In this document: one piece after another, positions 408 through 53,580 of the stretch
How the letters are laid out: every line of letters starts with the position of its first letter
How positions within the stretch are numbered: position 1 is the stretch's first letter
NCBI GenBank assembly: GCA_002327315.1
Contig: DCVI01000150.1
Coordinates: 2,114-66,113 of the forward strand
Source of the DNA: Syntrophaceae bacterium UBA2192
GTDB lineage: Bacteria; Desulfobacterota; Syntrophia; Syntrophales; UBA2192
DNA: 64,000 nucleotides
Direction of reading: 5' to 3'
Translations under genes and position numbers: made by a program
Notes under the pieces: model-generated
Told to the model about the DNA's origin: nothing
The model's database searches: none
What the model saw: the letters and a program-made list of their open reading frames with translations, nothing else

Positions 408-2375
408 TCAGTGGGTGAGCTTGCCGCGGTATTTCGTCGAGGGGAGGACCGTGGCGGGGACAACTTCCTGGCTGACCCAGTACGTCGTGTCGATCGTGAA
501 GGCCCTGTTCGTGTAGATCATGTAGCTGCGGCCGGGTTCCAGGGTTTTCAGGTTGCCGACGGTCTTGTGTCCGTGCAGCAGGAGGTACTGCATCGGCCTC
601 TCGAAACTGAAGAAGAGGCTCGCGTAGGGACTGCCCGCGTATGTCCCGAAAACAGCGTTGACGGATCGGTCCCCGGCGGGGAGCTTCTCGAACCGGACGG
701 TGTTGTAGCCCTTGTGGAATGTCATCTCCGTCTTGACGACGATCTTTTCCATGTAGGTTGTCAGTGCCGCGGAGGGTGCCGTCTCGGTCACCGTCACCTC
801 GTCGGGGTCCACCTGGGCCTTGTAGCCGATCTTGAGTTTGTGGACGAAATACCTGCCTGCCTTGGTGACTTTCGAGGCAAACTGGCCCGCCGAGTCGGTG
901 AGGTAATCCCCCACGACCTGCCCGAGTTCGTCCTTCACGGTGACGCTGACGCTCTCCAGCCCCGAGCCGGAAGGAACCTCCCTGATGTTGCCGTTGATGA
1001 AAAATTCCGTCACGGGGGGCGGGACGGGCCCGTCCTTGTCGTACTTGATCAGGACGGCGTCGATGACGCCGGGTGCCTGCTCCCCCAGCACGCCCTCCGT
1101 GGCGCCGGCAAGGTAGACGGTCCCCGAGGGGTCCACGGCGATCCCATAGGCCCAGTCCTGGGCGGCCGTGCCGAGCTGCCGGGTGAAGAGCTTCCGGCCC
1201 TCCGGCGCGAGGCGCGTCAGGAAGATGTCGGAGGCGCCCAGATAGCTCTGCCCGTCGAGACCCGGGCCGCCGGGGTAACCGGTAATTCCGGTCAGGTAGA
1301 TACTACCCTCGGCATCGACGGCAACCCCGTAGGCGACGTCATTGGTCGTCGTTCCGTACTGGTAGGACCAGAGCTTGCTGAGGTTTGCAGTGTATTTGAC
1401 GACGACGATGTCCTCATTGCCCGACCAGGCGTTCCCGTCGAAGGCCCCCAGGGTCGAGCCGGCGACGATGACGTTGCCCTTGCTGTCGACGGTGATGGCC
1501 CTGCCGATGTCGTTATCGCTTCCGTTGTTGGGGCCCCCCACCGTAGCGAGCTTTTTCAGCGTGCACCAGGCATCGAACTTGGCGATGAAGAGGGATCCGT
1601 TTTCATAAGCCCGGGCCAGGCCCGTGACGTAGATGTAGTCATAGGCCGTGCTGCTGTCGACGGCCACGCCGTAGGCATAGGTGTCCAGGGGGCGCGTTGC
1701 GACGCTGAACTGGTTGACGGGCATATCGACTCCGGTGGCGCTGAGCTGCAACAGGAAGGCGTTGCTATAGTCGCCGGGGTCGGTCACGCCGTCCATGGCG
1801 CCCTTCGTCGCCCCTACCGCATAGACCAGGCCGCTGCGGTCGGCGGCTACCGCGTAGGCGAAATCATCTTTGTCCGTGCCGAACTGCTTGATCCAGCGAA
1901 TCGTCCCCCCGGTGTGAATCTTTGCAACGAATACATCGGCGAGGCCGGCGTTTGCGTTCTCCGGCGGGACAACGGGCTGCTCGGCGCCTCCCGGCATGCT
2001 CCCCATCGTCCAGCCTGCGACATAGAGGAAGCCATATCGGTCGAGGGTGATCCCCTCGATGAAATCATCAGCCCCTGAACCGAACTGGACGACCCAGAGG
2101 AGCGCTCCCTGGGGGTCGAACTTGGCCACGAAGGCATCGGTGCCGCCCTTGTTGGTGTTCGGGACGAGCTGAGTCTCTGCGTTGATCGCGCCATGGGTTG
2201 TGCCTGCCACGTAGACGTTTCCAGAGGCATCCGTGACAAGCTCCTTGGCGTAATCGATCTGGGTCGAACCGAACTGCTTGACCCACTGAGGTGGGACGGG
2301 CGCCGTGGCGGCGAAAGCGGACCCGGCCAGCATGATGAAAAGGATGACGGTGACGACGAAATGACGGGTTTTCAT
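408..2375 (-). CDS. secreted SBBP-type beta-propeller repeat protein with a C-terminal Ig/CarboxypepD_reg-like region
   Basis: AGGAGG RBS before ATG at 2375. Signal peptide MKTRHFVVTVILFIMLAGSAFA. At least 7 repeats of the type D-[FW]-A-Y-[GA]-[VI]-A-V-D-x-x-G-x-[VI]-Y-[VL]-[AT]-G. The track ORF start at 2564 is rejected as an upstream extension. Confidence 0.8.
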   Translation of the reverse strand: MKTRHFVVTVILFIMLAGSAFAATAPVPPQWVKQFGSTQIDYAKELVTDASGNVYVAGTTHGAINAETQLVPNTNKGGTDAFVAKFDPQGALLWVVQFGSGADDFIEGITLDRYGFLYVAGWTMGSMPGGAEQPVVPPENANAGLADVFVAKIHTGGTIRWIKQFGTDKDDFAYAVAADRSGLVYAVGATKGAMDGVTDPGDYSNAFLLQLSATGVDMPVNQFSVATRPLDTYAYGVAVDSSTAYDYIYVTGLARAYENGSLFIAKFDAWCTLKKLATVGGPNNGSDNDIGRAITVDSKGNVIVAGSTLGAFDGNAWSGNEDIVVVKYTANLSKLWSYQYGTTTNDVAYGVAVDAEGSIYLTGITGYPGGPGLDGQSYLGASDIFLTRLAPEGRKLFTRQLGTAAQDWAYGIAVDPSGTVYLAGATEGVLGEQAPGVIDAVLIKYDKDGPVPPPVTEFFINGNIREVPSGSGLESVSVTVKDELGQVVGDYLTDSAGQFASKVTKAGRYFVHKLKIGYKAQVDPDEVTVTETAPSAALTTYMEKIVVKTEMTFHKGYNTVRFEKLPAGDRSVNAVFGTYAGSPYASLFFSFERPMQYLLLHGHKTVGNLKTLEPGRSYMIYTNRAFTIDTTYWVSQEVVPATVLPSTKYRGKLTH

Positions 2376-2680
2376 GACTCCCCTCCTGAAAAGCCCTTTT
2401 GTTCGCGCCTGAGCGGTTGTGCAGGTAGCGGTGACGGGAAAAAGGCATCCGGGAAGCGATGAGGGGATCCGCGGCGGGGTGCCGAAGACAGCCCCCGGGC
2501 CCGGTACTCCGGAACCGGAGGGTGCTCGGCTCGCCTGGCAGCCCTGCAACCCTATCCCGCGCAAGCGGGACGTAGGCCGGTGGCTTTGCGCCCCATCCTT
2601 TCGGATGGTTTGCCCTTTTCAGGCTCGTCAATCCCTATATCGGCAGGTCAGCGGAAAACTTTAGCGGGATGTCTCCTGCA

Positions 2681-25500: not shown

Positions 25501-25594
25501 AAATCCCCCTTCCTCCCCCTTTATAAAAGGGGGAAAGAGGGGGATTTTCTCTTGTTACTCTTTCCTTGTGGCTTGCGGCTCGTGCCTTGAGGCT
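25501..25594 (-). repeat. family-A repeat (GGGGGATTT palindrome + AAGCCRCAAG arm), inverted copy
   Basis: Its reverse complement is nearly identical to 28032-28113 and 47647-47724. It overlaps, and supplies, the last 12 codons and the stop of CDS 25555-26283. Confidence 0.75.
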
Positions 25595-26283
25595 CTCCGG
25601 AGGTATTTCCGTGTCCACGGGCAGGCCTCGATGCAGATGCCGCAGATCGTCGAATCGATTTGCTCCCTCTCGCAGAATTCCGTTGCCTTGCGGCAGCAGG
25701 CCCAGGCGTCGAAGAACTCGTCCCGGTCAAGCCCCAGGCGCCAGTTCGTCCCCGACGGGGCCGCCGCGGGGCAGATCTCGACGCAGGCCGAGCAGGTCCC
25801 GCATCTCGACTCGTCGAGGGGATGGCCTGTCTCGAGAGGGGCGTCGGTGAGGACCGTCGTAAGCCGGATTGCCGAACCGAAGGGCTTGGTGATCACCAGG
25901 GCATTCTTCCCGATCCAGCCCAACCCCGAGCGCGTCGCGGCGATCTTGTGGGAAAGCCCCGCGCGAAGCTGAACCGCATCGAATTCCTCCGTCGTCGGTT
26001 CAAGCGCGACGGCCGCAAACCCCCGCTCCCGCAGCAGCGTTGCCGCCCGGTGCGAGAGCTCCGAGAGCTGGGTGTTTGCCCGTTGGTATTCCCGGAAGTA
26101 CTCCTTCGTCGGCCCTTTCGTGATCCGTGAGACGATCCCGGGGCTGAGGGCCACGGCAATCGAGAGGGCGCGGCCCATATCCCTGCGGTCCTCTGCCGGG
26201 ACGGCCGTCATGTCGGCAAAGCCCACGAGGGCTGCCCCGTTTTCGATAAGCATTTTCCGGATCTTTTCAGAAGAACCTGCCAT
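25555..26283 (-). CDS. QueG-related 4Fe-4S ferredoxin-domain protein
   Basis: CGTCSACVEICP and CGICIEACP cluster motifs. The N-terminal LVGFADM...SHKIAATRSGLGWIGKN resembles epoxyqueuosine-reductase-like proteins. Confidence 0.65.
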   Translation of the reverse strand: MAGSSEKIRKMLIENGAALVGFADMTAVPAEDRRDMGRALSIAVALSPGIVSRITKGPTKEYFREYQRANTQLSELSHRAATLLRERGFAAVALEPTTEEFDAVQLRAGLSHKIAATRSGLGWIGKNALVITKPFGSAIRLTTVLTDAPLETGHPLDESRCGTCSACVEICPAAAPSGTNWRLGLDRDEFFDAWACCRKATEFCEREQIDSTICGICIEACPWTRKYLRRASRHEPQATRKE

Positions 26284-26286
26284 CGG

Positions 26287-27177
26287 TCACGACCCCTTCT
26301 TCCGGCTTGCGTACTGCTGGATGACAACGCCCGCCACGATGAGGACAAGCCCCACCACGGTGGAGGGAAAGATCTCCTCGCCGACGATGAAGTGGATGAG
26401 GAAAAGCGACAGGAATGGCGAGGCGTAGACGAGGTTGCTCACCTGTGCCGTCGTGCGGGAGAGCTGCAGGGCCTTGAGCCATGTGACGAAGGTTATCCCC
26501 ATCTCGAAGAGCCCCACCCAGATGACCCCCAGGATGCCGGCCGCCGGCGGGACGCGGATCTCCCCGAAGAGAAGAACGGCAGCGAGTGTGAAGATCGAGC
26601 CGAAGACGAAATTGAGGAAGAGCTTGACGATCTCGTCGCGCCTGTCCTTCACGTTGTAGATCCAGAAGAGGGCCCAGATGACGGAGCTTCCAAGCGCAAG
26701 CAGCGCCCCCGGGAGGTTCGTGAACCTGAAGCCCAGCACATCGCCCCGGGTGGAGATGACGAGGACGCCTAAAAAGCTGACGACGATGGCCAGCACGCTG
26801 GCCCAGCGGATGGGCTGCTTGAGAATCGCGATGGAGAGCAGCACCAGCATGATGGGCCAGGTCCAGTTCAGGGGCTGGGCCTCCTGGGCGGGCAGCAACG
26901 AGTAGGCCTTGAAGAGGATGACGTAGTAGAGAAAGGGGTTGAGAAACCCGAGGGCCGCCGAGCGTGCAAGATCGGCCCCCGTGCAGGTCCTGACGGCGGC
27001 GAGTTTCCCCTGGGCAAGAAGGATGATGAACAGGACCGCCAGGGACACGAGGGATGCCCCCAGGAGCATCTCGATGAAGCTCAGATGGGCCAAGGTGAGC
27101 TTGAAGGCGGAGGCCACGGTGGACCAGAGCAGAACGGTGGCACCGGCGTAGAGATAGGCCTTCGTCTGTCGCTCCAT
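26287..27177 (-). CDS. DMT-superfamily (EamA) transporter
   Basis: About 10 TM helices in two EamA-like halves. ATG at 27177; the track start at 27201 is TTG. Confidence 0.8.
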   Translation of the reverse strand: MERQTKAYLYAGATVLLWSTVASAFKLTLAHLSFIEMLLGASLVSLAVLFIILLAQGKLAAVRTCTGADLARSAALGFLNPFLYYVILFKAYSLLPAQEAQPLNWTWPIMLVLLSIAILKQPIRWASVLAIVVSFLGVLVISTRGDVLGFRFTNLPGALLALGSSVIWALFWIYNVKDRRDEIVKLFLNFVFGSIFTLAAVLLFGEIRVPPAAGILGVIWVGLFEMGITFVTWLKALQLSRTTAQVSNLVYASPFLSLFLIHFIVGEEIFPSTVVGLVLIVAGVVIQQYASRKKGS

Positions 27178-27199
27178 CGGCAGGGTCCTTTTCCGGATC

Positions 27200-27236
27200 A
27201 AATCCCCCTTTTACAAAGGGAAAAAGAGGGGGAATT
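27200..27236. repeat. family-A palindrome core (short copy)
   Basis: AAATCCCCCTTTTACAAAGGGAAAAAGAGGGGGAATTT. Confidence 0.6.
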
Positions 27237-43777: not shown

Positions 43778-44260
43778 TCAGCGTGCCACCCTTACCGGCG
43801 TCGCTTGCAGAATCCGCACGAGCTCCGCGGGTGTCATCTCCACGAGGAGCCCCTTGCGGCCCGCGTTGATGTAGATAACGGGAAGACGCAGGATCGTTTC
43901 CTCCACGTAGACTGGCAAGGCCTTCTTCGTGCCGAAGGGCGACGTCCCCCCCACGATGTAGCCTGTGTGGCGGTTGGCCGCGGCCGGCTCGCAGGGTTGA
44001 ACCGTCTTCACGCCGAGGACGCGCGCGAGCTCCTTCGTGGAGACCTCCCTGTCGCCGTGCATGAGGACGATGAAGGGTGCCTTTTTCTCGTCTTCCATGA
44101 CAAGCGTCTTTACGGTGAGGTGCTCGTCGACGCCGAGCTCCCTCGCGGCCACCTCCGTGCCGCCCCTCTCTTCGTACTTGTAGGGTCGCGGGACGAAGTC
44201 GACCTGCTTGTCCTTGAGGACCCGGATGGCCGGCGTTGCCGGGAGATGATCCTTGCTCAT
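43778..44260 (-). CDS. ybaK: Cys-tRNA(Pro)/Cys-tRNA(Cys) deacylase YbaK
   Basis: Overall YbaK/EbsC pattern including KTLVM and GYIVGGTSPFG. Confidence 0.85.
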   Translation of the reverse strand: MSKDHLPATPAIRVLKDKQVDFVPRPYKYEERGGTEVAARELGVDEHLTVKTLVMEDEKKAPFIVLMHGDREVSTKELARVLGVKTVQPCEPAAANRHTGYIVGGTSPFGTKKALPVYVEETILRLPVIYINAGRKGLLVEMTPAELVRILQATPVRVAR

Positions 44261-44368: not shown

Positions 44369-44495
44369 ATCACCCTCACCTCGATCCTCTCCTGGAAAAG
44401 GAACGGGATCCTTCCCCCTCCTCCACTTCCTCCTCCCACCAGGGGAGGAGAACAGAGGAAAAGGTCTCCATAGGGAGAGGAAGATCAAGGAAGGG
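44369..44495 (+). repeat. family-B ~130-bp MITE/REP-like element
   Basis: ATCACCCTCACCTCGATCCTCTCC ... CCTCCTCCCACCAGGGGAGGAG ... CATAGGGAGAGGAAGATCAAGG. Confidence 0.7.
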
Positions 44496-45576
44496 GTTTT
44501 TTACAGGACGGGAGCGCCTTCAGGATCTTCTTCTCGAGCCTTGAGACGGCAAGGCGGGAAATACCCGTTATCCCGACCCAGCGCAATTGCACATCGCCCC
44601 CGGAATCAGGGATGGCCCCCCGGATCCTGCAGGGAAAGACGTGCACGGTAACGGAGAAGTGGGAATATCCGTGTTCGACGGAGAACATTTCCCTGCCGGG
44701 GATTGCCTTCAGGGCCAATTCCTCCCGCAGCGACCTGCGCAGGCCTGCGGAAGGTGCATCCCCTTCCTTGAGGAAGCCCCCCGGAAAACTCCAGAGACCC
44801 CCGAGAAGCCCCCTCCCCGGCCTCTTGACGAGGAGGATCTCCCCCCGGTCATTGCGAATCACCGCAACGGCGGCCTCGCGGTGAGGGACTGCGGCCGCCT
44901 TCTTTTTTGCGGGAATCGATTCCTGATTCCCTTTCTTTCGGGCCCTGCACGCCGCGGCCAGGGGGCAGGCCGGGCAGGCGGGGCTCCGGGGCGTGCAGAT
45001 GCCGGAGCCGAGATCCATGAGGGCCTGGTTGTAATGGCCGGGCTCGCTCGCCGGGACGAGCCTCTCCGCGATTGCCCCGATCCGGTTTTTTGCCGTGCTC
45101 CCGTCGACGGGGTCCTCGATCGCGAAGAGTCGGGCGATGACGCGGATCACATTGCCGTCGACGGCCGCAAAGCGCCTTCCGAAAGCGATGCTCAGGATCG
45201 CCCCGGCGGTGTAGGCGCCCACGCCGGGCAGTTTCCGAAGATCCTCCATCTCTTCGGGGATCGTCCCGCCGAATTTTTTCACGACGACGCCGGCCGCCTC
45301 ATGGAGCTGTCGGGCGCGGGAATAGTAGCCGAGGCCTTCCCAGGCCTTGAGGACGTCGTCCACGCGGGCCCGGGCGAGCGCCCTCACGTCGGGAAACCTC
45401 TTCAGGAACCGCTCATAGTAGGGGATGACCGTGTCGACCCGGGTCTGCTGGAGCAGGACCTCGGCCACCCAGGTCCTGTAAGGGTCTCTCGTCTTCCGCC
45501 AGGGAAGATCTCTTTTATTCTTCTTGTACCAGTCGAGAAGCAGGCGGGGGATTTCCGTGTCGCGGTTGCTTGGCAT
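44485..45576 (-). CDS. mutY: A/G-specific adenine DNA glycosylase MutY
   Basis: LPWR...DPYRTWVAEVLLQQT, HhH LPGVGAYTAGAI, four-Cys cluster CTPRSPACPACPLAAAC and a C-terminal Nudix-like domain. Confidence 0.9.
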   Translation of the reverse strand: MPSNRDTEIPRLLLDWYKKNKRDLPWRKTRDPYRTWVAEVLLQQTRVDTVIPYYERFLKRFPDVRALARARVDDVLKAWEGLGYYSRARQLHEAAGVVVKKFGGTIPEEMEDLRKLPGVGAYTAGAILSIAFGRRFAAVDGNVIRVIARLFAIEDPVDGSTAKNRIGAIAERLVPASEPGHYNQALMDLGSGICTPRSPACPACPLAAACRARKKGNQESIPAKKKAAAVPHREAAVAVIRNDRGEILLVKRPGRGLLGGLWSFPGGFLKEGDAPSAGLRRSLREELALKAIPGREMFSVEHGYSHFSVTVHVFPCRIRGAIPDSGGDVQLRWVGITGISRLAVSRLEKKILKALPSCKKPLP

Positions 45577-45580
45577 GACG

Positions 45581-45669
45581 GTAAGGATAAAGGATAAAGG
45601 TGAAAGGACAAAGTAAAAAGGCGGGACAAGAATTTTTCGCCTTTAACCTTTTTCCTTTAGCCTTTGACC
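45581..45669. repeat. long imperfect hairpin (AAAGGNNA arms)
   Basis: GTAAGGATAAAGGATAAAGGTGAAAGGACAAAGTAAAAAGGCG ... CGCCTTTAACCTTTTTCCTTTAGCCTTTGAC. Confidence 0.6.
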
Positions 45670-45682
45670 TGGCGCTTCGCGC

Positions 45683-46639
45683 CTAGACGTGGTTGCGGAG
45701 CATCAGCTCCGAGGGGTGCGGGTTCAAATAGGTCTGCTCTTTCAGGTAGGGTTGGTTGTACTTCCGGACATAGTGGCCAAGCAGGGTGACGGGGACGATC
45801 AGAGGGATGAGCCCTCTCTTGTATTCAGTGATGATCTCCAGGAGCTCCCGCTTCTCGTCTGCACTGAGATCTTTCTTGAAGTAGCCCATGATGTGCATCA
45901 GGACATTCTCGTGCTTGGCCGCCGTGGGCTTGAGCGCCATGGCCTCCATGAGATGCCCCTCGTAGCGCTCGACAAGTTCACGGACCGGAATCTCCTTCGC
46001 ATGGGCCACGAGGCTTCCCATTTCCTTGAGGTGCCTGGGGCTGTGTGCCATGAGGAGAAGTTTGTTCTTCGCGTGGAAGTTCATCAGGCGCCTCGCCTGC
46101 TTCGTGCCCTCCATGATGTCGCAGTAACGCTTGCAGGTGAAGATGCGCTCGATGAAGTTCTCCCGAAGGACGGGGTCGTGGAGACGCCCTTCCTCTTCCA
46201 CGGGAGTGAGCGGAAAGTGCTCCATGAAGATACGGGCGAACACCCCCACGCCGACCTTCGACGGGATGCCCTTGTCGCCGTACACCTTGACGCGCTCCAT
46301 GCCGCTCGAAGGCGAATCGCTCTTGAAGACGTAGCCGCAGAGGTCTTCCTTCTCCAGCTCCTCAACGCGCTTGCGTGCCCAGGCCTCCATCCTCTCTGTG
46401 TGATCGGCACCGGTCTTGTGGATCACGAGTCGCGGCCGCTTCGGGTCGCCGATGAGACGGAAGGTGTCACGAGGGATGCCGAAACCGCACTCCACCTCGG
46501 GGCAGACGGGGACATACTCAACGTACTTGCCCAGGGTGTAGGCGAGGAACCGGTCCAAGGCGTGCCCGCCGTTCCAGCGGACATTCTGGCCGAGCAGTCA
46601 GCTGCTGATTCCGAGACGGATCTTGTCCATGTTGGTCAT
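45683..46639 (-). CDS. DUF523(TudS-like)-DUF1722(YbgA-like) fusion protein, selenoprotein candidate; Sec codon at 46598-46600
   Basis: Reading through the UGA gives MTNMDKIRLGISS-U-LLGQNVRWNGGHALDRFLAYTLGKYVEYVPVCPEVECGFGIPRD. This matches the DUF523 N-terminus (kIgiSACLLGe.vRydGgh ... vCPEv) with U at the conserved Cys. The track ORF starts only at an internal TTG (46558). Confidence 0.65.
46563..46583 (-). promoter_or_regulatory. candidate SECIS hairpin
   Basis: UGUCCGC-UGGAACG-GCGGGCA (7-bp stem including one G.U pair) begins 14 nt after the UGA. Confidence 0.35.
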
Positions 46640-46779
46640 GGTAGCACACATCGACTCGAAGGAAAACCAAATCATGGGTTGAACACCGATTCCCCCCGGA
46701 TTGTCTTTCTTGCCTCGAAGGTCGGAGGCATGCTAGAAATGGAGCCGAATGAAACGCTGACGGGACACGGAGGAGGCGC

Positions 46780-47741: not shown

Positions 47742-48470
47742 TCAGGACCGGAGCTTCAGGAGGGCCGCCTCGTATTCCTGCATGAGCTGCGGGGGCCGAG
47801 TAGCGCCCAGCGCTTCCCGGAGCACCCCTTCGGCCCGCGATGGATCGATTGCTGCCAGGGTCTTGACGGCAAGGACTTCCCTCAGGGTCCGAGGTGGGAA
47901 GACCCGGGTGACGGTCTTTTTCTCCGGGTCGAAGAACTGGATGTAACCCTGGCGGATCGTTTTCCCGTATACGTTGATGCTCGCGGCGATCCCGTCGGTG
48001 GGGTTGTCCATGGCGTGGATGCCCTTGTTGAGGGGCCGGACAAAGGTCGTCTCCCCGGGCCCGCACACCCCGTGCCCGGTCTCGCGAAGCTCCGCGCAGC
48101 CCTCACGCTTCCCGTCGTCGGTCCGCTCGTACTTCCTTTCCCCCAGCTTTCCGCAAAGCGTGCCGATGATGCCCCAGGAGCCGTGGTCATGGATGATGTC
48201 GGCAAGCTTCGCATCCCAGATGTAGGCCAGGACAACGAAAGACCTCTCGGGGCTGCGGTAGAGTGTGTACTCGTTGGGCCATATGCCGGGCCTGCGGCTT
48301 TCGAAAGAGGACGGCTCGAGAATCATTTTTTTCAGATACTCGAAAAACCAGTCCTGCCGGGACAGGAGTTCCGACACCAGCTCGCGGCCGTTTTCGATCT
48401 TTCGGGACATGGTCTTCTCGTCGGCGATCATCCTCTGGATCCGCCCGCAGAAGGCCTCGAACCGCTCCAT
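47742..48470 (-). CDS. cysteine-dioxygenase-like cupin protein
   Basis: AAGGAG RBS before ATG 48470. Cupin His motif DIIHDHGSWG, with NKGIHAMDNP downstream. Confidence 0.55.
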   Translation of the reverse strand: MERFEAFCGRIQRMIADEKTMSRKIENGRELVSELLSRQDWFFEYLKKMILEPSSFESRRPGIWPNEYTLYRSPERSFVVLAYIWDAKLADIIHDHGSWGIIGTLCGKLGERKYERTDDGKREGCAELRETGHGVCGPGETTFVRPLNKGIHAMDNPTDGIAASINVYGKTIRQGYIQFFDPEKKTVTRVFPPRTLREVLAVKTLAAIDPSRAEGVLREALGATRPPQLMQEYEAALLKLRS

Positions 48471-48474
48471 GGCG

Positions 48475-49341
48475 CTACTCCTTGTCTTTGCTTTTTTCCC
48501 TGGGCTTTTGCGGTGCCCCATATTTGCGGATGTGGGTCCACGATTTGTACTCGGGCGCATCGGGGTTGGCCGCCAGGGTCTCCTGCTCTTTCCCGTATTT
48601 CTTCCGGATTCCCTTGCTCTTGTAGAGCAGCCTGTCTTTTCCGATGGGGCAGACCTTCGTGCAGATGCCGCAGGGGTAGCAGCGCCGCTTCACCAGCTCC
48701 TCGTGCATCTCCAGGCAGGCCGTCTTGTCGTAGTCCCCGACGACACGGTCCTCTCTCGGCTTGATGGCATTCTTGGGGCAGCACTCGGCGCAGAGCTTGC
48801 AATGGATGCACAGCTCCTTGCCCTGCATCGGGTCGGGCGGGATCTCGGCGGCAGTGAGAACGGAAACAAAACGGACACGGGGCCCGAACTCGGGAGTGAG
48901 GATGCACTGGTTCATCCCGATCGTGCCCAGGCCGGCATACTTTGCCGCCGGGACGTGGCCGAAGGCGGCCAGGTTATTCTCCCGGAGGGCCCGCATGGTG
49001 GTGTAGGTGTCGCGGGTGAAGGGGAACGAGGCGTGCCCCATGCGGTTGAGATAGCGTGTGAGCTCCACGGCCAGGTCGTCGAGCTGGCGGTTCGTCGTCG
49101 TGTAGAGCTCCTGGTGGAGTGCCGACGGTGTCGTCTCCACGACGGGCAGCGGCATGGACATGCCGATGACGATGACGGTGCGCGCCTGCGGGAAGATCGC
49201 CCTGGGCCGGAAATCCGGCGGCACTTCTCCGTACTCGTCCCAGCGCTCCACGGGGGCAAACCCCACGAGATCCGTGTTTCGGTCCCTGCAGAATCGGATG
49301 ACGTCGTCCTTGAGTGCCTGGTCCTTGAGGGGGATAGTCAT
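48475..49341 (-). CDS. QueG/reductive-dehalogenase-related 4Fe-4S protein
   Basis: CIHCKLCAECCP and CYPCGICTKVCP motifs. N-terminal LVGFAPVERW...AAKYAGLGTIGMN. Confidence 0.65.
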   Translation of the reverse strand: MTIPLKDQALKDDVIRFCRDRNTDLVGFAPVERWDEYGEVPPDFRPRAIFPQARTVIVIGMSMPLPVVETTPSALHQELYTTTNRQLDDLAVELTRYLNRMGHASFPFTRDTYTTMRALRENNLAAFGHVPAAKYAGLGTIGMNQCILTPEFGPRVRFVSVLTAAEIPPDPMQGKELCIHCKLCAECCPKNAIKPREDRVVGDYDKTACLEMHEELVKRRCYPCGICTKVCPIGKDRLLYKSKGIRKKYGKEQETLAANPDAPEYKSWTHIRKYGAPQKPREKSKDKE

Positions 49342-52209: not shown

Positions 52210-53580
52210 TCACCGGCTTTTGCGCTCCAGGGCGGACACCTTTTTCAGGTAGGCATCCATGTCGAACTTGCGCTTGAGCCCCGCATCGTTCATGTAGCGA
52301 ATCTTTCCGAAGACCTTCCGCTCGGACCAGGCCCGGTCGTGCTTGCCGAAGCACCAGGCCACGCCGGCAAACCCGTTGGGGTCCCTTCCGTCGAGTTCGT
52401 AGCGGTTGTTGAGGGTAATGGCCGTCCGGAAGGCCTCCGCCGGGGTCCGGCTCCACTCGAGGATCTTCTTCCCCCAGTACATGCGCATGTAATTGTGCAT
52501 CTTGCCGGTGATCATCATCTCCCGCTGGGCGGCGTTCCAGTAAGGGTCATGGGTCCCGGCGCGCTCCCACTGTTCAGGGCCATAGATAACTTCGCGGCGG
52601 TCCTTTGCGTGCTCGGCGAGGGTCTTTCTCGCCCAGTCCGGCAGGCACTCGTACTCGTCGTAGCGGTCGTTGTAAAAAACGAAGTTCATGCCGAGCTCGC
52701 GCCGCACGATGAGCTCTTCCAGGAAGGACTCCCTTGCCGCGGCGGGGACCGATCTCTCACCGGATATGCGAAGGGCGACGGCGAGCGGTGAGATCTGCCC
52801 AAAGTGCAGGTAGGGGCTCAGATGGGAGGAGTAGTCGAGGCCCGGGTCGTTCCGAAGCTTGTCGTAGTGGCGGATCTTCTTTGCGATGAATCCCTCCAGC
52901 AGGGCGTTGGCCCGGGCCGTACCGCCCCGGAAGGCCATCACGGGCGAAACGCTGCGGTCGATTTTCATTTTCTTGAGCAAAGACGTGAGCTCCCCTTCCG
53001 AGTCCACGTCGAGGCGAAGGGAGAGAGAGTCCTTCCTGACCGTTTTTTCCTTCAGCGGGACGAGGTATCCCTCGAGGATTCGCTGGAGCTTGGGCCTCAG
53101 GGTCCCCGCGGTGTATTCCTCCTTCGGCGAGGCCGTCTCCACGGGGACGACAGTCTCGGACTCCACCTGCACGACGGAGCAGGGGGCGTTTTTTGCGACG
53201 TGGTTTCTCCACTGCCGCTGGATGCGCAGATAGCCCCGGTCGGCGACGACAAGGGCCGCCTCCTCGGCCATCGCCGTTGCGGCCAGCTCGGGCGAGCGGT
53301 GAACGAGCACGAAACGGATGCCCCGGCTGTTCAGCCTCTTTCGGACCTCCTCGAGCCCTTCCACCATGAAGGCGTAGTGGCGCAGGTTGGCCTCGGGGAA
53401 CTGCCCGGTGAGGCCGAAGACGACAACGACGGGAAGGTTGCGCTCGTTTGCCTCTCCCACGGCGTATTCGAGGGCATGGTTGCACTCGACCCTCTGGGAG
53501 GCCTGCATCCAGTAAAGGATGTAGCGGCCGTCCTGGATGCTTCGGCTGTTGAGCGGCTGGATACGCGAGGCATGGATCAT
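52210..53580 (-). CDS. phr: class II CPD deoxyribodipyrimidine photolyase
   Basis: YILYWMQASQRVECNHAL N-terminus and C-terminal GKMHNYMRMYWGKKILEW. Confidence 0.9.
   Translation of the reverse strand: MIHASRIQPLNSRSIQDGRYILYWMQASQRVECNHALEYAVGEANERNLPVVVVFGLTGQFPEANLRHYAFMVEGLEEVRKRLNSRGIRFVLVHRSPELAATAMAEEAALVVADRGYLRIQRQWRNHVAKNAPCSVVQVESETVVPVETASPKEEYTAGTLRPKLQRILEGYLVPLKEKTVRKDSLSLRLDVDSEGELTSLLKKMKIDRSVSPVMAFRGGTARANALLEGFIAKKIRHYDKLRNDPGLDYSSHLSPYLHFGQISPLAVALRISGERSVPAAARESFLEELIVRRELGMNFVFYNDRYDEYECLPDWARKTLAEHAKDRREVIYGPEQWERAGTHDPYWNAAQREMMITGKMHNYMRMYWGKKILEWSRTPAEAFRTAITLNNRYELDGRDPNGFAGVAWCFGKHDRAWSERKVFGKIRYMNDAGLKRKFDMDAYLKKVSALERKSR

What the first reader, a model, noticed from the sequence alone, without database searches (positions are those of the whole stretch)
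45683..46639. DUF523(TudS-like)-DUF1722 protein with UGA replacing the conserved N-terminal SACLLG cysteine
The track ORF begins at an internal TTG. The frame upstream reads MTNMDKIRLGISS-UGA-LLGQNVRWNGGH, and this continues seamlessly into the ORF. It reproduces the DUF523 N-terminal signature (GiSACLLGe.vRydGgh) with the stop codon at the Cys. In the DUF523 enzyme TudS, as I recall, this Cys is one of three ligands of a catalytic [4Fe-4S] cluster. Sec here would therefore be a selenolate Fe-S ligand or a catalytic selenol, which is unusual. I do not remember DUF523 among listed selenoprotein families. A 7-bp hairpin starts 14 nt after the UGA.
Basis: partly seen in the sequence, partly recalled or inferred. 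Interest (0 to 1): 0.7.

Follow-up and report, generated by a model that had tools for sequence, protein, structure and literature searches.

The report
Selenocysteine-containing RudS tRNA desulfidase gene
A gene for a tRNA 4-thiouridine desulfidase (RudS type) carries an in-frame UGA, very probably read as selenocysteine, exactly where its relatives have an iron-sulfur-binding cysteine; it is a solid but incremental addition to the list of bacterial selenoproteins.

Summary
On the minus strand, a 315-codon ORF (46630..45683) encodes a TudS(DUF523)-DUF1722 fusion of the RudS type. It has one in-frame TGA (46600..46598), aligned with TudS Cys10.

- **Codon use at that site:** across 154 orthologous loci the codon is only TGC (76), TGT (58) or TGA (20).
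- **TGA genes are functional:** they come from different Syntrophaceae/Syntrophales MAGs and metagenomes. They are intact, syntenic and diverged (dS up to 0.86), and under purifying selection (dN/dS about 0.13).
- **Upstream codons are translated:** the 10 codons before the TGA are 95% conserved, against 51% for the DNA before the ATG.
- **Hairpin:** a hairpin meeting the published bacterial SECIS criteria is intact in 20/20 TGA genes. It is invariant, so there is no covariation.
- **Normal stop codon:** TGA still ends neighbouring genes.

So this is very probably a genuine selenoprotein that public annotation truncates.

Two corrections apply. DUF523 was already reported as a selenoprotein in 2025, but as a stand-alone protein from one organism, with Sec at the third ligand position. 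Also, this whole clade has Ser (SPSSG) where TudS has its third cysteine ligand, so the claim that Sec is one of three cluster ligands is inferred, not shown. No Sec machinery could be checked.

The parts
45683..46630 (-). Full coding sequence of the RudS-type protein (315 aa plus TAG stop), read through one UGA at codon 11
   Evidence: Translation. The ATG at 46630 is the conserved start. Orthologues are 315 codons long.
46637..46639 (-).
   Evidence: In relatives this codon is ATA, GTA, CTA, CCT and others.
46598..46600 (-). In-frame TGA, the predicted selenocysteine codon (Sec11), aligned with TudS Cys10 and RudS_KT Cys17
46563..46583 (-). SECIS-like hairpin UGUCCGC-UGGAACG-GCGGGCA. The stem starts 14 nt after the UGA and the apical loop 21 nt after it. 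It lies within codons V17-H23.
   Evidence: Fold (-12.8 kcal/mol). Intact in 20/20 TGA orthologues. Meets the bSECIS criteria quoted.
46190..46612 (-). TudS / DUF523 (PF04463) catalytic domain, residues about 7-147
   Evidence: Pfam E=2.7e-40. phmmer hit to TudS 6z92. Foldseek best hit TudS, probability 1.0.
45713..46063 (-). DUF1722 (PF08349) domain, residues about 190-306. In RudS this is the tRNA-binding domain.
   Evidence: Pfam E=2.7e-48. Role taken from PMC11417400.
46502..46504 (-). Cys43 codon (CPEV motif), the second cluster ligand, invariant in 151/151 sequences
46304..46306 (-). Ser109 codon (SPSSG), the position of the third TudS cluster ligand Cys104 and of the Sec in the Desulfosarcina sp. 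BuS5 DUF523 selenoprotein
46556..46558 (-). Internal TTG used as the start by mechanical or public gene calls, giving the truncated 291-aa product
46638..46646 (-). Conserved TGnTAnnAT-like motif (TGCTACCAT) ending 7 nt before the conserved ATG; a possible extended -10 box (speculative)
   Evidence: Alignment of upstream regions. The strict sigma-70 scan found nothing.
45617..45644 (-). Terminator-like hairpin followed by a T-rich run, between the stop codon and the downstream mutY
   Evidence: It was reported on the + strand; the palindromic stem reads on the - strand too, followed by TTTTACTTT.

Best explanation
The gene encodes a RudS-type enzyme: a TudS desulfidase domain fused to a DUF1722 tRNA-binding domain. 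The characterised homologues remove sulfur from 4-thiouridine in tRNA.

**Proposed decoding (inferred).** Codon 11 is a UGA decoded as selenocysteine. The hairpin in codons 17-23 has its apical loop 21 nt downstream of the UGA. It acts as a bacterial SECIS that recruits SelB with Sec-tRNA(Sec), so translation continues to give a 315-aa selenoprotein.

**Proposed role of Sec (inferred).** Sec11 occupies the position of the first cysteine ligand of the catalytic [4Fe-4S] cluster, so the cluster would be held by a selenolate (Sec11) and Cys43. The third ligand would be Ser109 or the nearby Cys48.

**What is shown.** The catalytic residues of the TudS mechanism are retained: Glu45, Ser106, Ser108, Arg54, Arg18 and Asn20. 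The Cys/Sec toggling, the intact ORFs, the purifying selection, the conserved hairpin and the domain identity are all shown here.

**What is not shown.** Sec insertion, Fe-Se ligation and tRNA s4U desulfidation by this protein are inferred.
For: 1. **Codon pattern.** In 154 orthologous loci the codon is TGC 76, TGT 58, TGA 20 and never anything else.
2. **TGA genes span real divergence.** They come from at least 19 other assemblies and share down to 79% nt identity, with dS up to 0.86. Median dN/dS is 0.13, and 0.11 in the TudS domain. Of the 20 TGA genes, 18 including the window's are intact 315-codon ORFs. One of the remaining two is cut by a contig end and the other has an in-frame deletion.
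3. **Upstream codons are translated.** The 10 codons between the ATG and the TGA are 94.6% identical, and 4 of 6 variable sites are at third positions. The 30 nt before the ATG are 51% identical.
4. **Hairpin fits the published bSECIS model.** The criteria quoted from PMC13188914 are a loop of 3-9 nt, a stem of 4-16 bp, G in the first two loop positions, 16-37 nt spacing and MFE <= -7.5. Here the loop is UGGAACG, the stem 7-9 bp, the spacing 21-23 nt and the energy -12.8 kcal/mol.
5. **Hairpin is better kept in TGA genes.** It is intact in 20/20 TGA genes, and the only stem changes preserve pairing (U-G to U-A, G-C to G-U). Two of 12 Cys genes in the same clade carry disruptive changes. Mean fold energy is -14.2 in TGA genes against -8.3 kcal/mol in Cys genes outside the clade.
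6. **Link to Trp19.** TGA occurs only together with Trp19 (VRWNGG), whose TGG codon supplies the GG of the apical loop.
7. **Ligand position.** The UGA aligns with TudS Cys10 / RudS_KT Cys17, a cluster ligand whose mutation abolishes RudS activity.
8. **TGA is not reassigned.** It is the ordinary stop of 9 of 18 neighbouring genes.
9. **Sec use in the family.** The cultured relative Syntrophus aciditrophicus has 19 selenoproteins (PMC1794560).
10. **Precedent in the fold.** A TudS-family protein with Sec at another cluster-ligand position has been predicted.
Against: - No selA, selB, selC or selD, no tRNA-Sec and no other selenoprotein gene was found in the 64-kb window or in the held flanks.
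- The hairpin is nearly invariant, so there is no covariation.
- The hairpin also encodes highly conserved residues, and similar stems exist in some Cys-only relatives such as L015, L016 and L019. Its stability is only in the 5-6.5% tail for this G+C-rich DNA.
- The proposed lower stem is not conserved.
- The third canonical Cys ligand is Ser in this clade, so cluster binding as in TudS is not assured.
- The AlphaFold model has low confidence around the active-site loops, and no coordinates were available to check distances.
Confidence: 0.8

Rival explanations
1. The TGA is a true stop. The gene is a pseudogene, or it is expressed only as an N-terminally truncated protein starting at the downstream TTG, CTG or ATG (residue 25 of the 315-residue numbering; Leu28 of the first reader's MTNM... 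numbering), as public annotation has it.
For: Gene callers annotate it this way: 291-, 304- and 270-aa products. A GGCGGG stretch lies just upstream of the TTG. Four relatives have ATG at that codon. No Sec machinery was seen in the window.
Against: - The 10 codons upstream of the TGA are conserved as coding sequence (95% identity, against 51% for the DNA before the ATG).
- The stop is always TGA, never TAA or TAG, and it alternates only with Cys codons.
- dN/dS is 0.11 in the TudS domain across dS up to 0.86.
- A truncated product would lack the first beta-strand and a residue essential for RudS activity.
- The alternative start is CTG in most relatives.
Confidence: 0.07
2. The UGA is read through, but Sec11 is not a passive cluster ligand. 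In this clade the third Cys ligand has been lost, and the Cys/Sec at position 11 acts as a catalytic chalcogen. It might accept the sulfur of s4U as a Se-S adduct, or form a redox couple with Cys43 or Cys48. The Fe-S cluster would be reduced in role or absent.
For: - SPSSG replaces SPSCG in 271/274 members.
- In characterised RudS the corresponding Cys114 is required for activity.
- Bacterial Sec typically evolves from redox-active Cys (title and thesis of PMC1794560).
- An extra Cys48 (CPEVEC) is 93% conserved.
Against: - All residues of the Fe-S-dependent TudS mechanism are invariant: Glu45, Ser106, Ser108, Arg54 and Cys43.
- RudS_TT C47A stays active with two Cys ligands, so two ligands can suffice.
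- The BuS5 TudS selenoprotein keeps all three ligand positions with Sec at one of them, which shows that Sec is tolerated as a ligand in this fold.
- Cys48 is absent in two TGA genes, L008 and L083.
Confidence: 0.12
3. Sequencing or assembly error, or a general reassignment of TGA in this organism.
For: None beyond the fact that the window is from a metagenome-assembled genome.
Against: The same TGA is present in 20 independent assemblies. TGA terminates 9 of 18 neighbouring genes, including mutY, ybaK and the photolyase gene.
Confidence: 0.01

Closest known systems
RudS (TudS-DUF1722 fusion; tRNA 4-thiouridine desulfidase; e.g. Pseudomonas putida PP_0741, Salmonella STM1389), PMC11417400
   Same: - Same two-domain architecture.
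- Same N-terminal C-L-L-G-x-x-V-R-aromatic-N/D-G-G, CPEV and SPS-x-G motifs.
- Catalytic Glu, two Ser and Arg are conserved.
- The gene lies in a DNA-repair neighbourhood, with mutY adjacent and a class-2 photolyase 5.6 kb away. RudS genes are often in light-responsive operons.
   Different: - The first cluster ligand is encoded by UGA (Sec) rather than Cys.
- The third ligand Cys is replaced by Ser (SPSSG).
- Tyr25 of RudS_KT is Trp here.
- Activity has not been tested.
TudS ([4Fe-4S] thiouracil / 4-thio-UMP desulfidase; PDB 6Z92, 6Z93, 6Z96)
   Same: The N-terminal domain is homologous: phmmer E=0.0055, with the motifs aligned, and it is the best Foldseek hit at probability 1.0. Sec11 aligns with Cys10 and Cys43 with Cys43.
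   Different: TudS is a stand-alone domain of about 150-166 aa with three Cys ligands. Here there is a fused DUF1722 domain, Sec at ligand 1 and Ser at ligand 3.
DUF523 selenoprotein of Desulfosarcina sp. BuS5 (deep-Sep 2025, PMC12013277; WP_419761712.1; motif SxSUG)
   Same: Same Pfam family (PF04463). Sec replaces a [4Fe-4S]-ligand cysteine. Both are from sulfate-reducer/syntroph-type Deltaproteobacteria (Thermodesulfobacteriota).
   Different: - The BuS5 protein is stand-alone (148 aa). It keeps Cys at the first ligand (SACLLG) and has Sec at the third (SPSUG).
- It was reported from one organism only, with no TGA homologues.
- Here Sec is at the first ligand and the third is Ser.
- Here the protein is a RudS fusion, and at least 19 further TGA orthologues exist.
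Selenoproteins in which Sec ligates a metal: FdhA (Mo/W) and [NiFeSe] hydrogenase (Ni). Also predicted Sec at Fe-S motifs (FDH3 beta / HybA, Fe-S oxidoreductase-like GlpC, 2Fe-2S proteins)
   Same: Sec sits at a metal-ligand position rather than in a thiol-disulfide redox motif. The review estimates that about 20% of selenoprotein families have predicted ligand-binding Sec, mostly for metals or Fe-S clusters.
   Different: Those are redox enzymes or electron carriers. TudS/RudS chemistry is a non-redox desulfuration at a substrate-binding cluster.

Membership tests
Bacterial selenoprotein gene (Sec-UGA plus bSECIS) | In-frame UGA aligned with Cys in homologues (a Sec/Cys pair) | tested here: met
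   The codon is TGC 76, TGT 58 and TGA 20 in 154 loci. The closest full-length proteins read GISSCLLG.
Bacterial selenoprotein gene (Sec-UGA plus bSECIS) | TGA-containing orthologues in other organisms, with conserved flanks on both sides of the TGA | tested here: met
   There are 19 further TGA loci. The 10 upstream codons are 95% identical, the ORFs are intact and dN/dS is 0.13.
Bacterial selenoprotein gene (Sec-UGA plus bSECIS) | Stem-loop meeting the bSECIS model: loop 3-9 nt, stem 4-16 bp, G in the first two loop positions, 16-37 nt from the UGA to the loop, MFE <= -7.5 kcal/mol | tested here: met
   Criteria quoted. The hairpin has a 7-9 bp stem, a loop of UGGAACG (or GAA), 21-23 nt spacing and -12.8 kcal/mol. 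It is kept in 20/20 TGA genes, but without covariation.
Bacterial selenoprotein gene (Sec-UGA plus bSECIS) | selA, selB, selC and selD present in the same genome | not testable with these tools
   None is present in the 64-kb window or the held flanks, and whole MAGs cannot be fetched. A cultured member of the family, Syntrophus aciditrophicus, has 19 selenoproteins.
Bacterial selenoprotein gene (Sec-UGA plus bSECIS) | Selenium actually incorporated at the UGA | not testable with these tools
   Needs 75Se labelling or mass spectrometry.
RudS (TudS-DUF1722 tRNA s4U desulfidase) | TudS (PF04463) domain fused to DUF1722 (PF08349) | tested here: met
   (E=2.7e-40 and 2.7e-48). Fold hit to TudS.
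RudS (TudS-DUF1722 tRNA s4U desulfidase) | Three conserved cysteines ligating the [4Fe-4S] cluster (RudS_KT Cys17, Cys49, Cys114) | tested here: not met
   Position 1 is Sec (Cys in relatives) and position 2 is Cys43. Position 3 is Ser109, with SPSSG in 271/274 clade members.
RudS (TudS-DUF1722 tRNA s4U desulfidase) | Catalytic Glu (CPE), two Ser (SPS) and Arg residues | tested here: met
   E45, S106, S108, R54 and R18 are invariant in alignment A1, where they appear as E48, S109, S111, R57 and R21 in P0001 numbering.
RudS (TudS-DUF1722 tRNA s4U desulfidase) | Desulfidation of s4U in tRNA | not testable with these tools
   Needs a biochemical assay.
RudS (TudS-DUF1722 tRNA s4U desulfidase) | Frequent placement in light-responsive or photolyase operons | tested here: inconclusive
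   mutY is immediately downstream, and a phr2 photolyase lies 5.6 kb away on the same strand but not adjacent. The RudS-mutY-ybaK synteny is conserved.
DUF523 selenoprotein as published (deep-Sep; SxSUG) | Sec in the SPS-U-G motif (third ligand) of a stand-alone DUF523 protein | tested here: not met
   Here that residue is Ser, Sec is in the SS-U-LLG motif, and the protein is a DUF1722 fusion.

The most novel reading that the evidence does not exclude
In a large RudS-like clade that has lost the third cysteine ligand (SPSSG), residue 11 may be a working chalcogen rather than a spectator ligand. Sec11 (Cys11 in relatives) might take the sulfur from tRNA 4-thiouridine as a Se-S intermediate, or it might cycle with Cys43/Cys48. 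That would make this a selenol-dependent tRNA 'eraser' whose chemistry differs from the [4Fe-4S]/[4Fe-5S] mechanism of TudS. A milder version is also open: a catalytic, non-redox [4Fe-4S] cluster held by Sec, Cys and Ser, which would be a ligand set not described so far.
Probability: 0.15. Interest if true: 0.75.

Novelty: new variant of a known kind. Interest (0 to 1): 0.5.

Why it matters
- **Annotation.** Public annotation truncates these genes to 270-304 aa, so a whole set of Syntrophales RudS proteins is mis-annotated. No NCBIfam model covers the TudS (DUF523) domain or flags the protein as a selenoprotein; the only hit is a below-cutoff YbgA/DUF1722 model.
- **Second Sec site in the TudS fold.** Together with the BuS5 case, Sec now appears at two different cluster-ligand positions of the same enzyme family. 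That suggests selenolate ligation of a catalytic, non-redox [4Fe-4S] cluster can be advantageous.
- **A natural experimental system.** Sec and Cys alleles differ by one nucleotide in otherwise more than 90% identical proteins. This allows a direct test of what Se does at an Fe-S site, for example whether it confers oxygen tolerance on a cluster known to be oxygen-labile.
- **A separate question about RudS.** The clade-wide Cys-to-Ser change at the third ligand raises the question of how RudS cluster binding works in this group.
- **Link between selenium and tRNA modification.** It would connect selenium use to erasure of a tRNA modification in strict anaerobes.

Tried and rejected
- **tRNA-Sec and Rfam.** ARAGORN found no tRNA in the window and no tRNA-Sec in about 1 Mb of held loci. 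Rfam found only a c-di-GMP-I riboswitch at gathering threshold, and nothing SECIS-like at E<=10 around the site. Rfam has no general bacterial SECIS model, so this is uninformative.
- **Other selenoprotein genes in the window.** I screened for ORFs interrupted only by TGA. The best candidate, 25555-27210(-), is two adjacent genes: an EamA-type transporter and a QueG-like Fe-S protein. None was confirmed.
- **Covariation in the hairpin.** None is available, because the stem is invariant. A longer lower stem predicted by RNAfold is not conserved among TGA genes and was dropped.
- **Fold-energy z-score.** For the 66-nt region it is not significant, at -0.5.
- **Promoter scan.** The strict sigma-70 scan found no promoter.
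- **AlphaFold model.** It reached pLDDT 81, with active-site loops below 50, and no coordinates are exposed. I could not test whether Cys48 or Ser109 can reach the cluster site.
- **Cys48/Cys98 complementarity.** No sequence lacks both, but only about 1.3 such sequences are expected by chance, so this carries no weight.
Full report
**1. The observation**

The gene is on the minus strand.
- Translating 46660..45683 gives ...MTNMDKIRLGISS*LLGQNVRWNGGHALDRF..., running on to a TAG at 45683 with no other stop. The TGA is at 46600..46598.
- The mechanical ORF list starts the gene at an internal TTG (46558), giving 291 aa. Public databases hold this same truncated product (P0002/P0003, 100% identical, 291 aa).
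- With the stop read as Cys, Pfam gives PF04463 (2-thiouracil desulfurase, formerly DUF523; E=2.7e-40, residues 10-150) and PF08349 (DUF1722; E=2.7e-48, residues 193-309).

One correction concerns the start codon. In relatives, the three codons before the second ATG are unconserved and are often ATA, GTA or CTA. The conserved start is therefore ATG 46630, giving a 315-aa protein with the recoded residue at position 11.

**2. What the protein is**

A TudS domain fused to DUF1722 is the architecture named RudS. RudS is a tRNA 4-thiouridine (s4U) desulfidase. Its TudS domain holds a catalytic [4Fe-4S] cluster bound by three cysteines, and the fourth iron binds the substrate sulfur (PMC11417400).
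- phmmer against PDB sequences finds only TudS (6z92, E=0.0055). The UGA residue aligns with TudS Cys10, CPEV Cys43 with Cys43, and SPS-S-G with SPS-C104-G.
- An AlphaFold model of the 91%-identical Cys homologue P0001 (pLDDT 81) has TudS as its best PDB match (probability 1.0, TM 0.54-0.59 on the target).
- The catalytic Glu, the two Ser, and the Arg residues of the RudS/TudS mechanism are invariant in the family alignment.

**3. Is the UGA a selenocysteine codon?**

I fetched 80 loci from species-representative genomes and 80 from metagenomes.

*Codon pattern.* At the aligned codon, 154 loci have TGC (76), TGT (58) or TGA (20 including the window). There is no other codon and no other stop. 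The TGA genes come from Syntrophaceae/Syntrophales MAGs and from sediment, wetland and digester metagenomes.

*The TGA genes are not decaying.*
- Among the 20 TGA genes, 18 (the window's included) are exactly 315 codons with a single TGA. One of the other two is cut by a contig end and the other has an in-frame deletion.
- They share the same neighbourhood: QueG-like, hypothetical, PNPOx-like, cupin, RudS, mutY, ybaK.
- They share down to 79% nucleotide identity, and dS reaches 0.86.
- Median dN/dS is 0.13 overall and 0.11 in the TudS domain. This excludes pseudogene decay.

*The stretch before the TGA is translated.* The 30 nt between the ATG and the TGA are 94.6% identical among TGA genes, with 4 of 6 variable sites at third codon positions. 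The 30 nt before the ATG are only 51% identical.

*TGA is not reassigned.* It terminates 9 of 18 neighbouring genes.

*Phylogeny.* A neighbour-joining tree shows one clade in which TGA predominates, with Cys alleles nested inside it (for example L004). This implies several Sec/Cys switches.

**4. The SECIS candidate**

The published bacterial SECIS model requires a 3-9 nt apical loop, a 4-16 bp stem, a G in the first two loop positions (pattern N1-G-[G|U]-N-N2...), 16-37 nt between the UGA and the loop, and MFE <= -7.5 kcal/mol (PMC13188914).

The hairpin here has a 7-bp stem and loop U-G-G-A-A-C-G. RNAfold alternatively gives 9 bp with a GAA loop. The loop starts 21 (or 23) nt after the UGA, and the energy is -12.8 kcal/mol. 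All four criteria are met.

Evidence that the hairpin matters:
- It is intact in 20/20 TGA genes. The only stem changes keep pairing (U-G to U-A in three genes, G-C to G-U in one).
- Among the 12 Cys genes of the same clade, two carry pair-breaking synonymous changes (L087 GTA, L092 GGA).
- Mean folding energy of the 36-nt segment is -14.2 kcal/mol in TGA genes, -12.8 in Cys genes of the clade and -8.3 in the other 122 Cys genes.
- Synonymous variation in codons 1-26 is among the lowest in the gene for the TGA group.
- TGA occurs only with Trp19 (VRWNGG instead of VRY[ND]GG). The TGG codon supplies the two G's of the loop.

Limits of this evidence:
- There is no covariation, because the stem never varies.
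- The stem encodes conserved residues, and some Cys-only relatives have a similar stem.
- Its stability lies only in the 5-6.5% tail of random segments of this window.
- A predicted lower stem is not conserved.

**5. Sec machinery**

No tRNA-Sec or sel gene is in the window or in the held flanks, and whole MAGs cannot be retrieved here. Indirectly, the cultured relative Syntrophus aciditrophicus has 19 selenoproteins (PMC1794560). This remains the main untested requirement.

**6. What Sec would do**

By homology, residue 11 is the first ligand of the catalytic cluster. RudS Cys-to-Ala mutants at this position lose activity.

The clade departs from the canonical picture. The third ligand cysteine (TudS Cys104, RudS_KT Cys114) is serine (SPSSG) in 271 of 274 sequences, in both Sec and Cys forms. 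Only position 11 (Cys/Sec) and Cys43 are universal. Cys48 (CPEVEC) is 93% conserved and Cys98 is 88% conserved. Two TGA genes lack Cys48.

The RudS paper notes that one Thermus mutant lacking a ligand cysteine stayed active, so two thiolates may suffice. My best reading is therefore a [4Fe-4S] cluster held by Sec11, Cys43 and a third ligand that is Ser109 or Cys48. This part is inference. The rival, a catalytic selenol with a reduced or absent cluster, cannot be excluded; I give it about 0.12-0.15.

A rationale would be protection of an oxygen-labile cluster in an enzyme that sits in a DNA-damage and light-stress neighbourhood. mutY is adjacent, and a class-2 photolyase lies 5.6 kb away. This rationale is also inferred.

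**7. Comparison with what is known**

The 2026 review lists it with motif SxSUG.

Its sequence is a stand-alone 148-aa TudS-like protein with Cys at the first ligand (SACLLG) and Sec at the third (SPSUG). Alignment A3 shows that its Sec column is Ser109 here, and its first Cys column is Sec11 here.

The present case is therefore a different Sec site, in a different architecture (RudS fusion), with many TGA orthologues.
- No paper in the library links RudS with selenocysteine as a residue.
- No NCBIfam model covers the N-terminal TudS domain or marks the protein as a selenoprotein; the one hit is a below-cutoff YbgA/DUF1722 model.
- Sec at metal-ligand positions is itself not new. It is known in FdhA and [NiFeSe] hydrogenase, and predicted in several Fe-S proteins.

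**8. Verdict**

- The interpretation as a Sec codon at the conserved ligand cysteine is well supported by comparative evidence (confidence about 0.8 to 0.85).
- The role as a selenolate Fe-S ligand is plausible but unproven, and it is complicated by the Ser at the third ligand position.
- Novelty: a new variant of a known kind, namely a new Sec site and subfamily within a family that has one prior predicted selenoprotein.
- Interest is moderate (0.5). It is a clean natural Sec/Cys pair at a catalytic non-redox Fe-S cluster and a correction to annotation, but new bacterial selenoprotein families are found regularly.

Noticed in passing
window 46304-46306 (-), and the same column in L001-L160: The whole RudS-like clade (down to about 61% identity; Thermodesulfobacteriota, some Acidobacteriota and others) has SPSSG instead of SPSCG. 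The third [4Fe-4S] ligand cysteine, which is required in characterised RudS, is serine in 271/274 sequences. This holds whether position 11 is Sec or Cys.
   Followed up: partly
window 46574-46576 (-) (Trp19 codon TGG): TGA at codon 11 occurs only in genes with Trp19 (VRWNGG), whereas other relatives have Tyr or Phe. The TGG supplies the GG of the putative SECIS apical loop. An amino-acid change at a residue important in RudS_KT (Tyr25) may therefore have been driven by the RNA element.
   Followed up: partly
window 46638-46646 (-): The conserved motif TGCTACCAT (TGnTAnnAT-like, extended -10?) ends 7 nt before the conserved ATG, and there is no Shine-Dalgarno sequence. The mRNA may be leaderless or have a very short leader. 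The strict sigma-70 scan found nothing.
   Followed up: partly
window 44485-45576 (-), 43778-44260 (-), 52210-53580 (-): The neighbours are mutY (A/G-specific adenine glycosylase, TIGR01084 above cutoff), ybaK (Cys-tRNA(Pro) deacylase) and a class-2 CPD photolyase (TIGR00591). The RudS-mutY-ybaK order is conserved in the TGA loci.
   Followed up: partly
window 2534-2624 (-): A c-di-GMP-I riboswitch (RF01051, 74 bits, E=1.2e-12) lies upstream of a long minus-strand ORF (408..2564).
   Followed up: no
window 25555-27210 (-): Two ORFs in the same frame are separated only by a TGA. Translation shows two separate genes, an EamA-type transporter followed by a QueG-like Fe-S protein, not a selenoprotein.
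   Followed up: yes
window 48475-49341 (-) and 47742-48560 (-): A QueG / reductive-dehalogenase-like 4Fe-4S protein and an overlapping or adjacent 272-aa protein with no Pfam or NCBIfam hit are conserved next to the RudS locus in the TGA-bearing relatives.
   Followed up: no
L104:2001-2870: One TGA-bearing orthologue (PDVJ01001362.1) is 25 codons shorter through an in-frame deletion in the TudS domain. This may be an assembly artefact or a decaying copy.
   Followed up: no
window 45617-45644: A terminator-like hairpin with a T-rich tail sits in the 106-nt spacer between the RudS stop codon and mutY, suggesting that the RudS gene is transcribed on its own.
   Followed up: no
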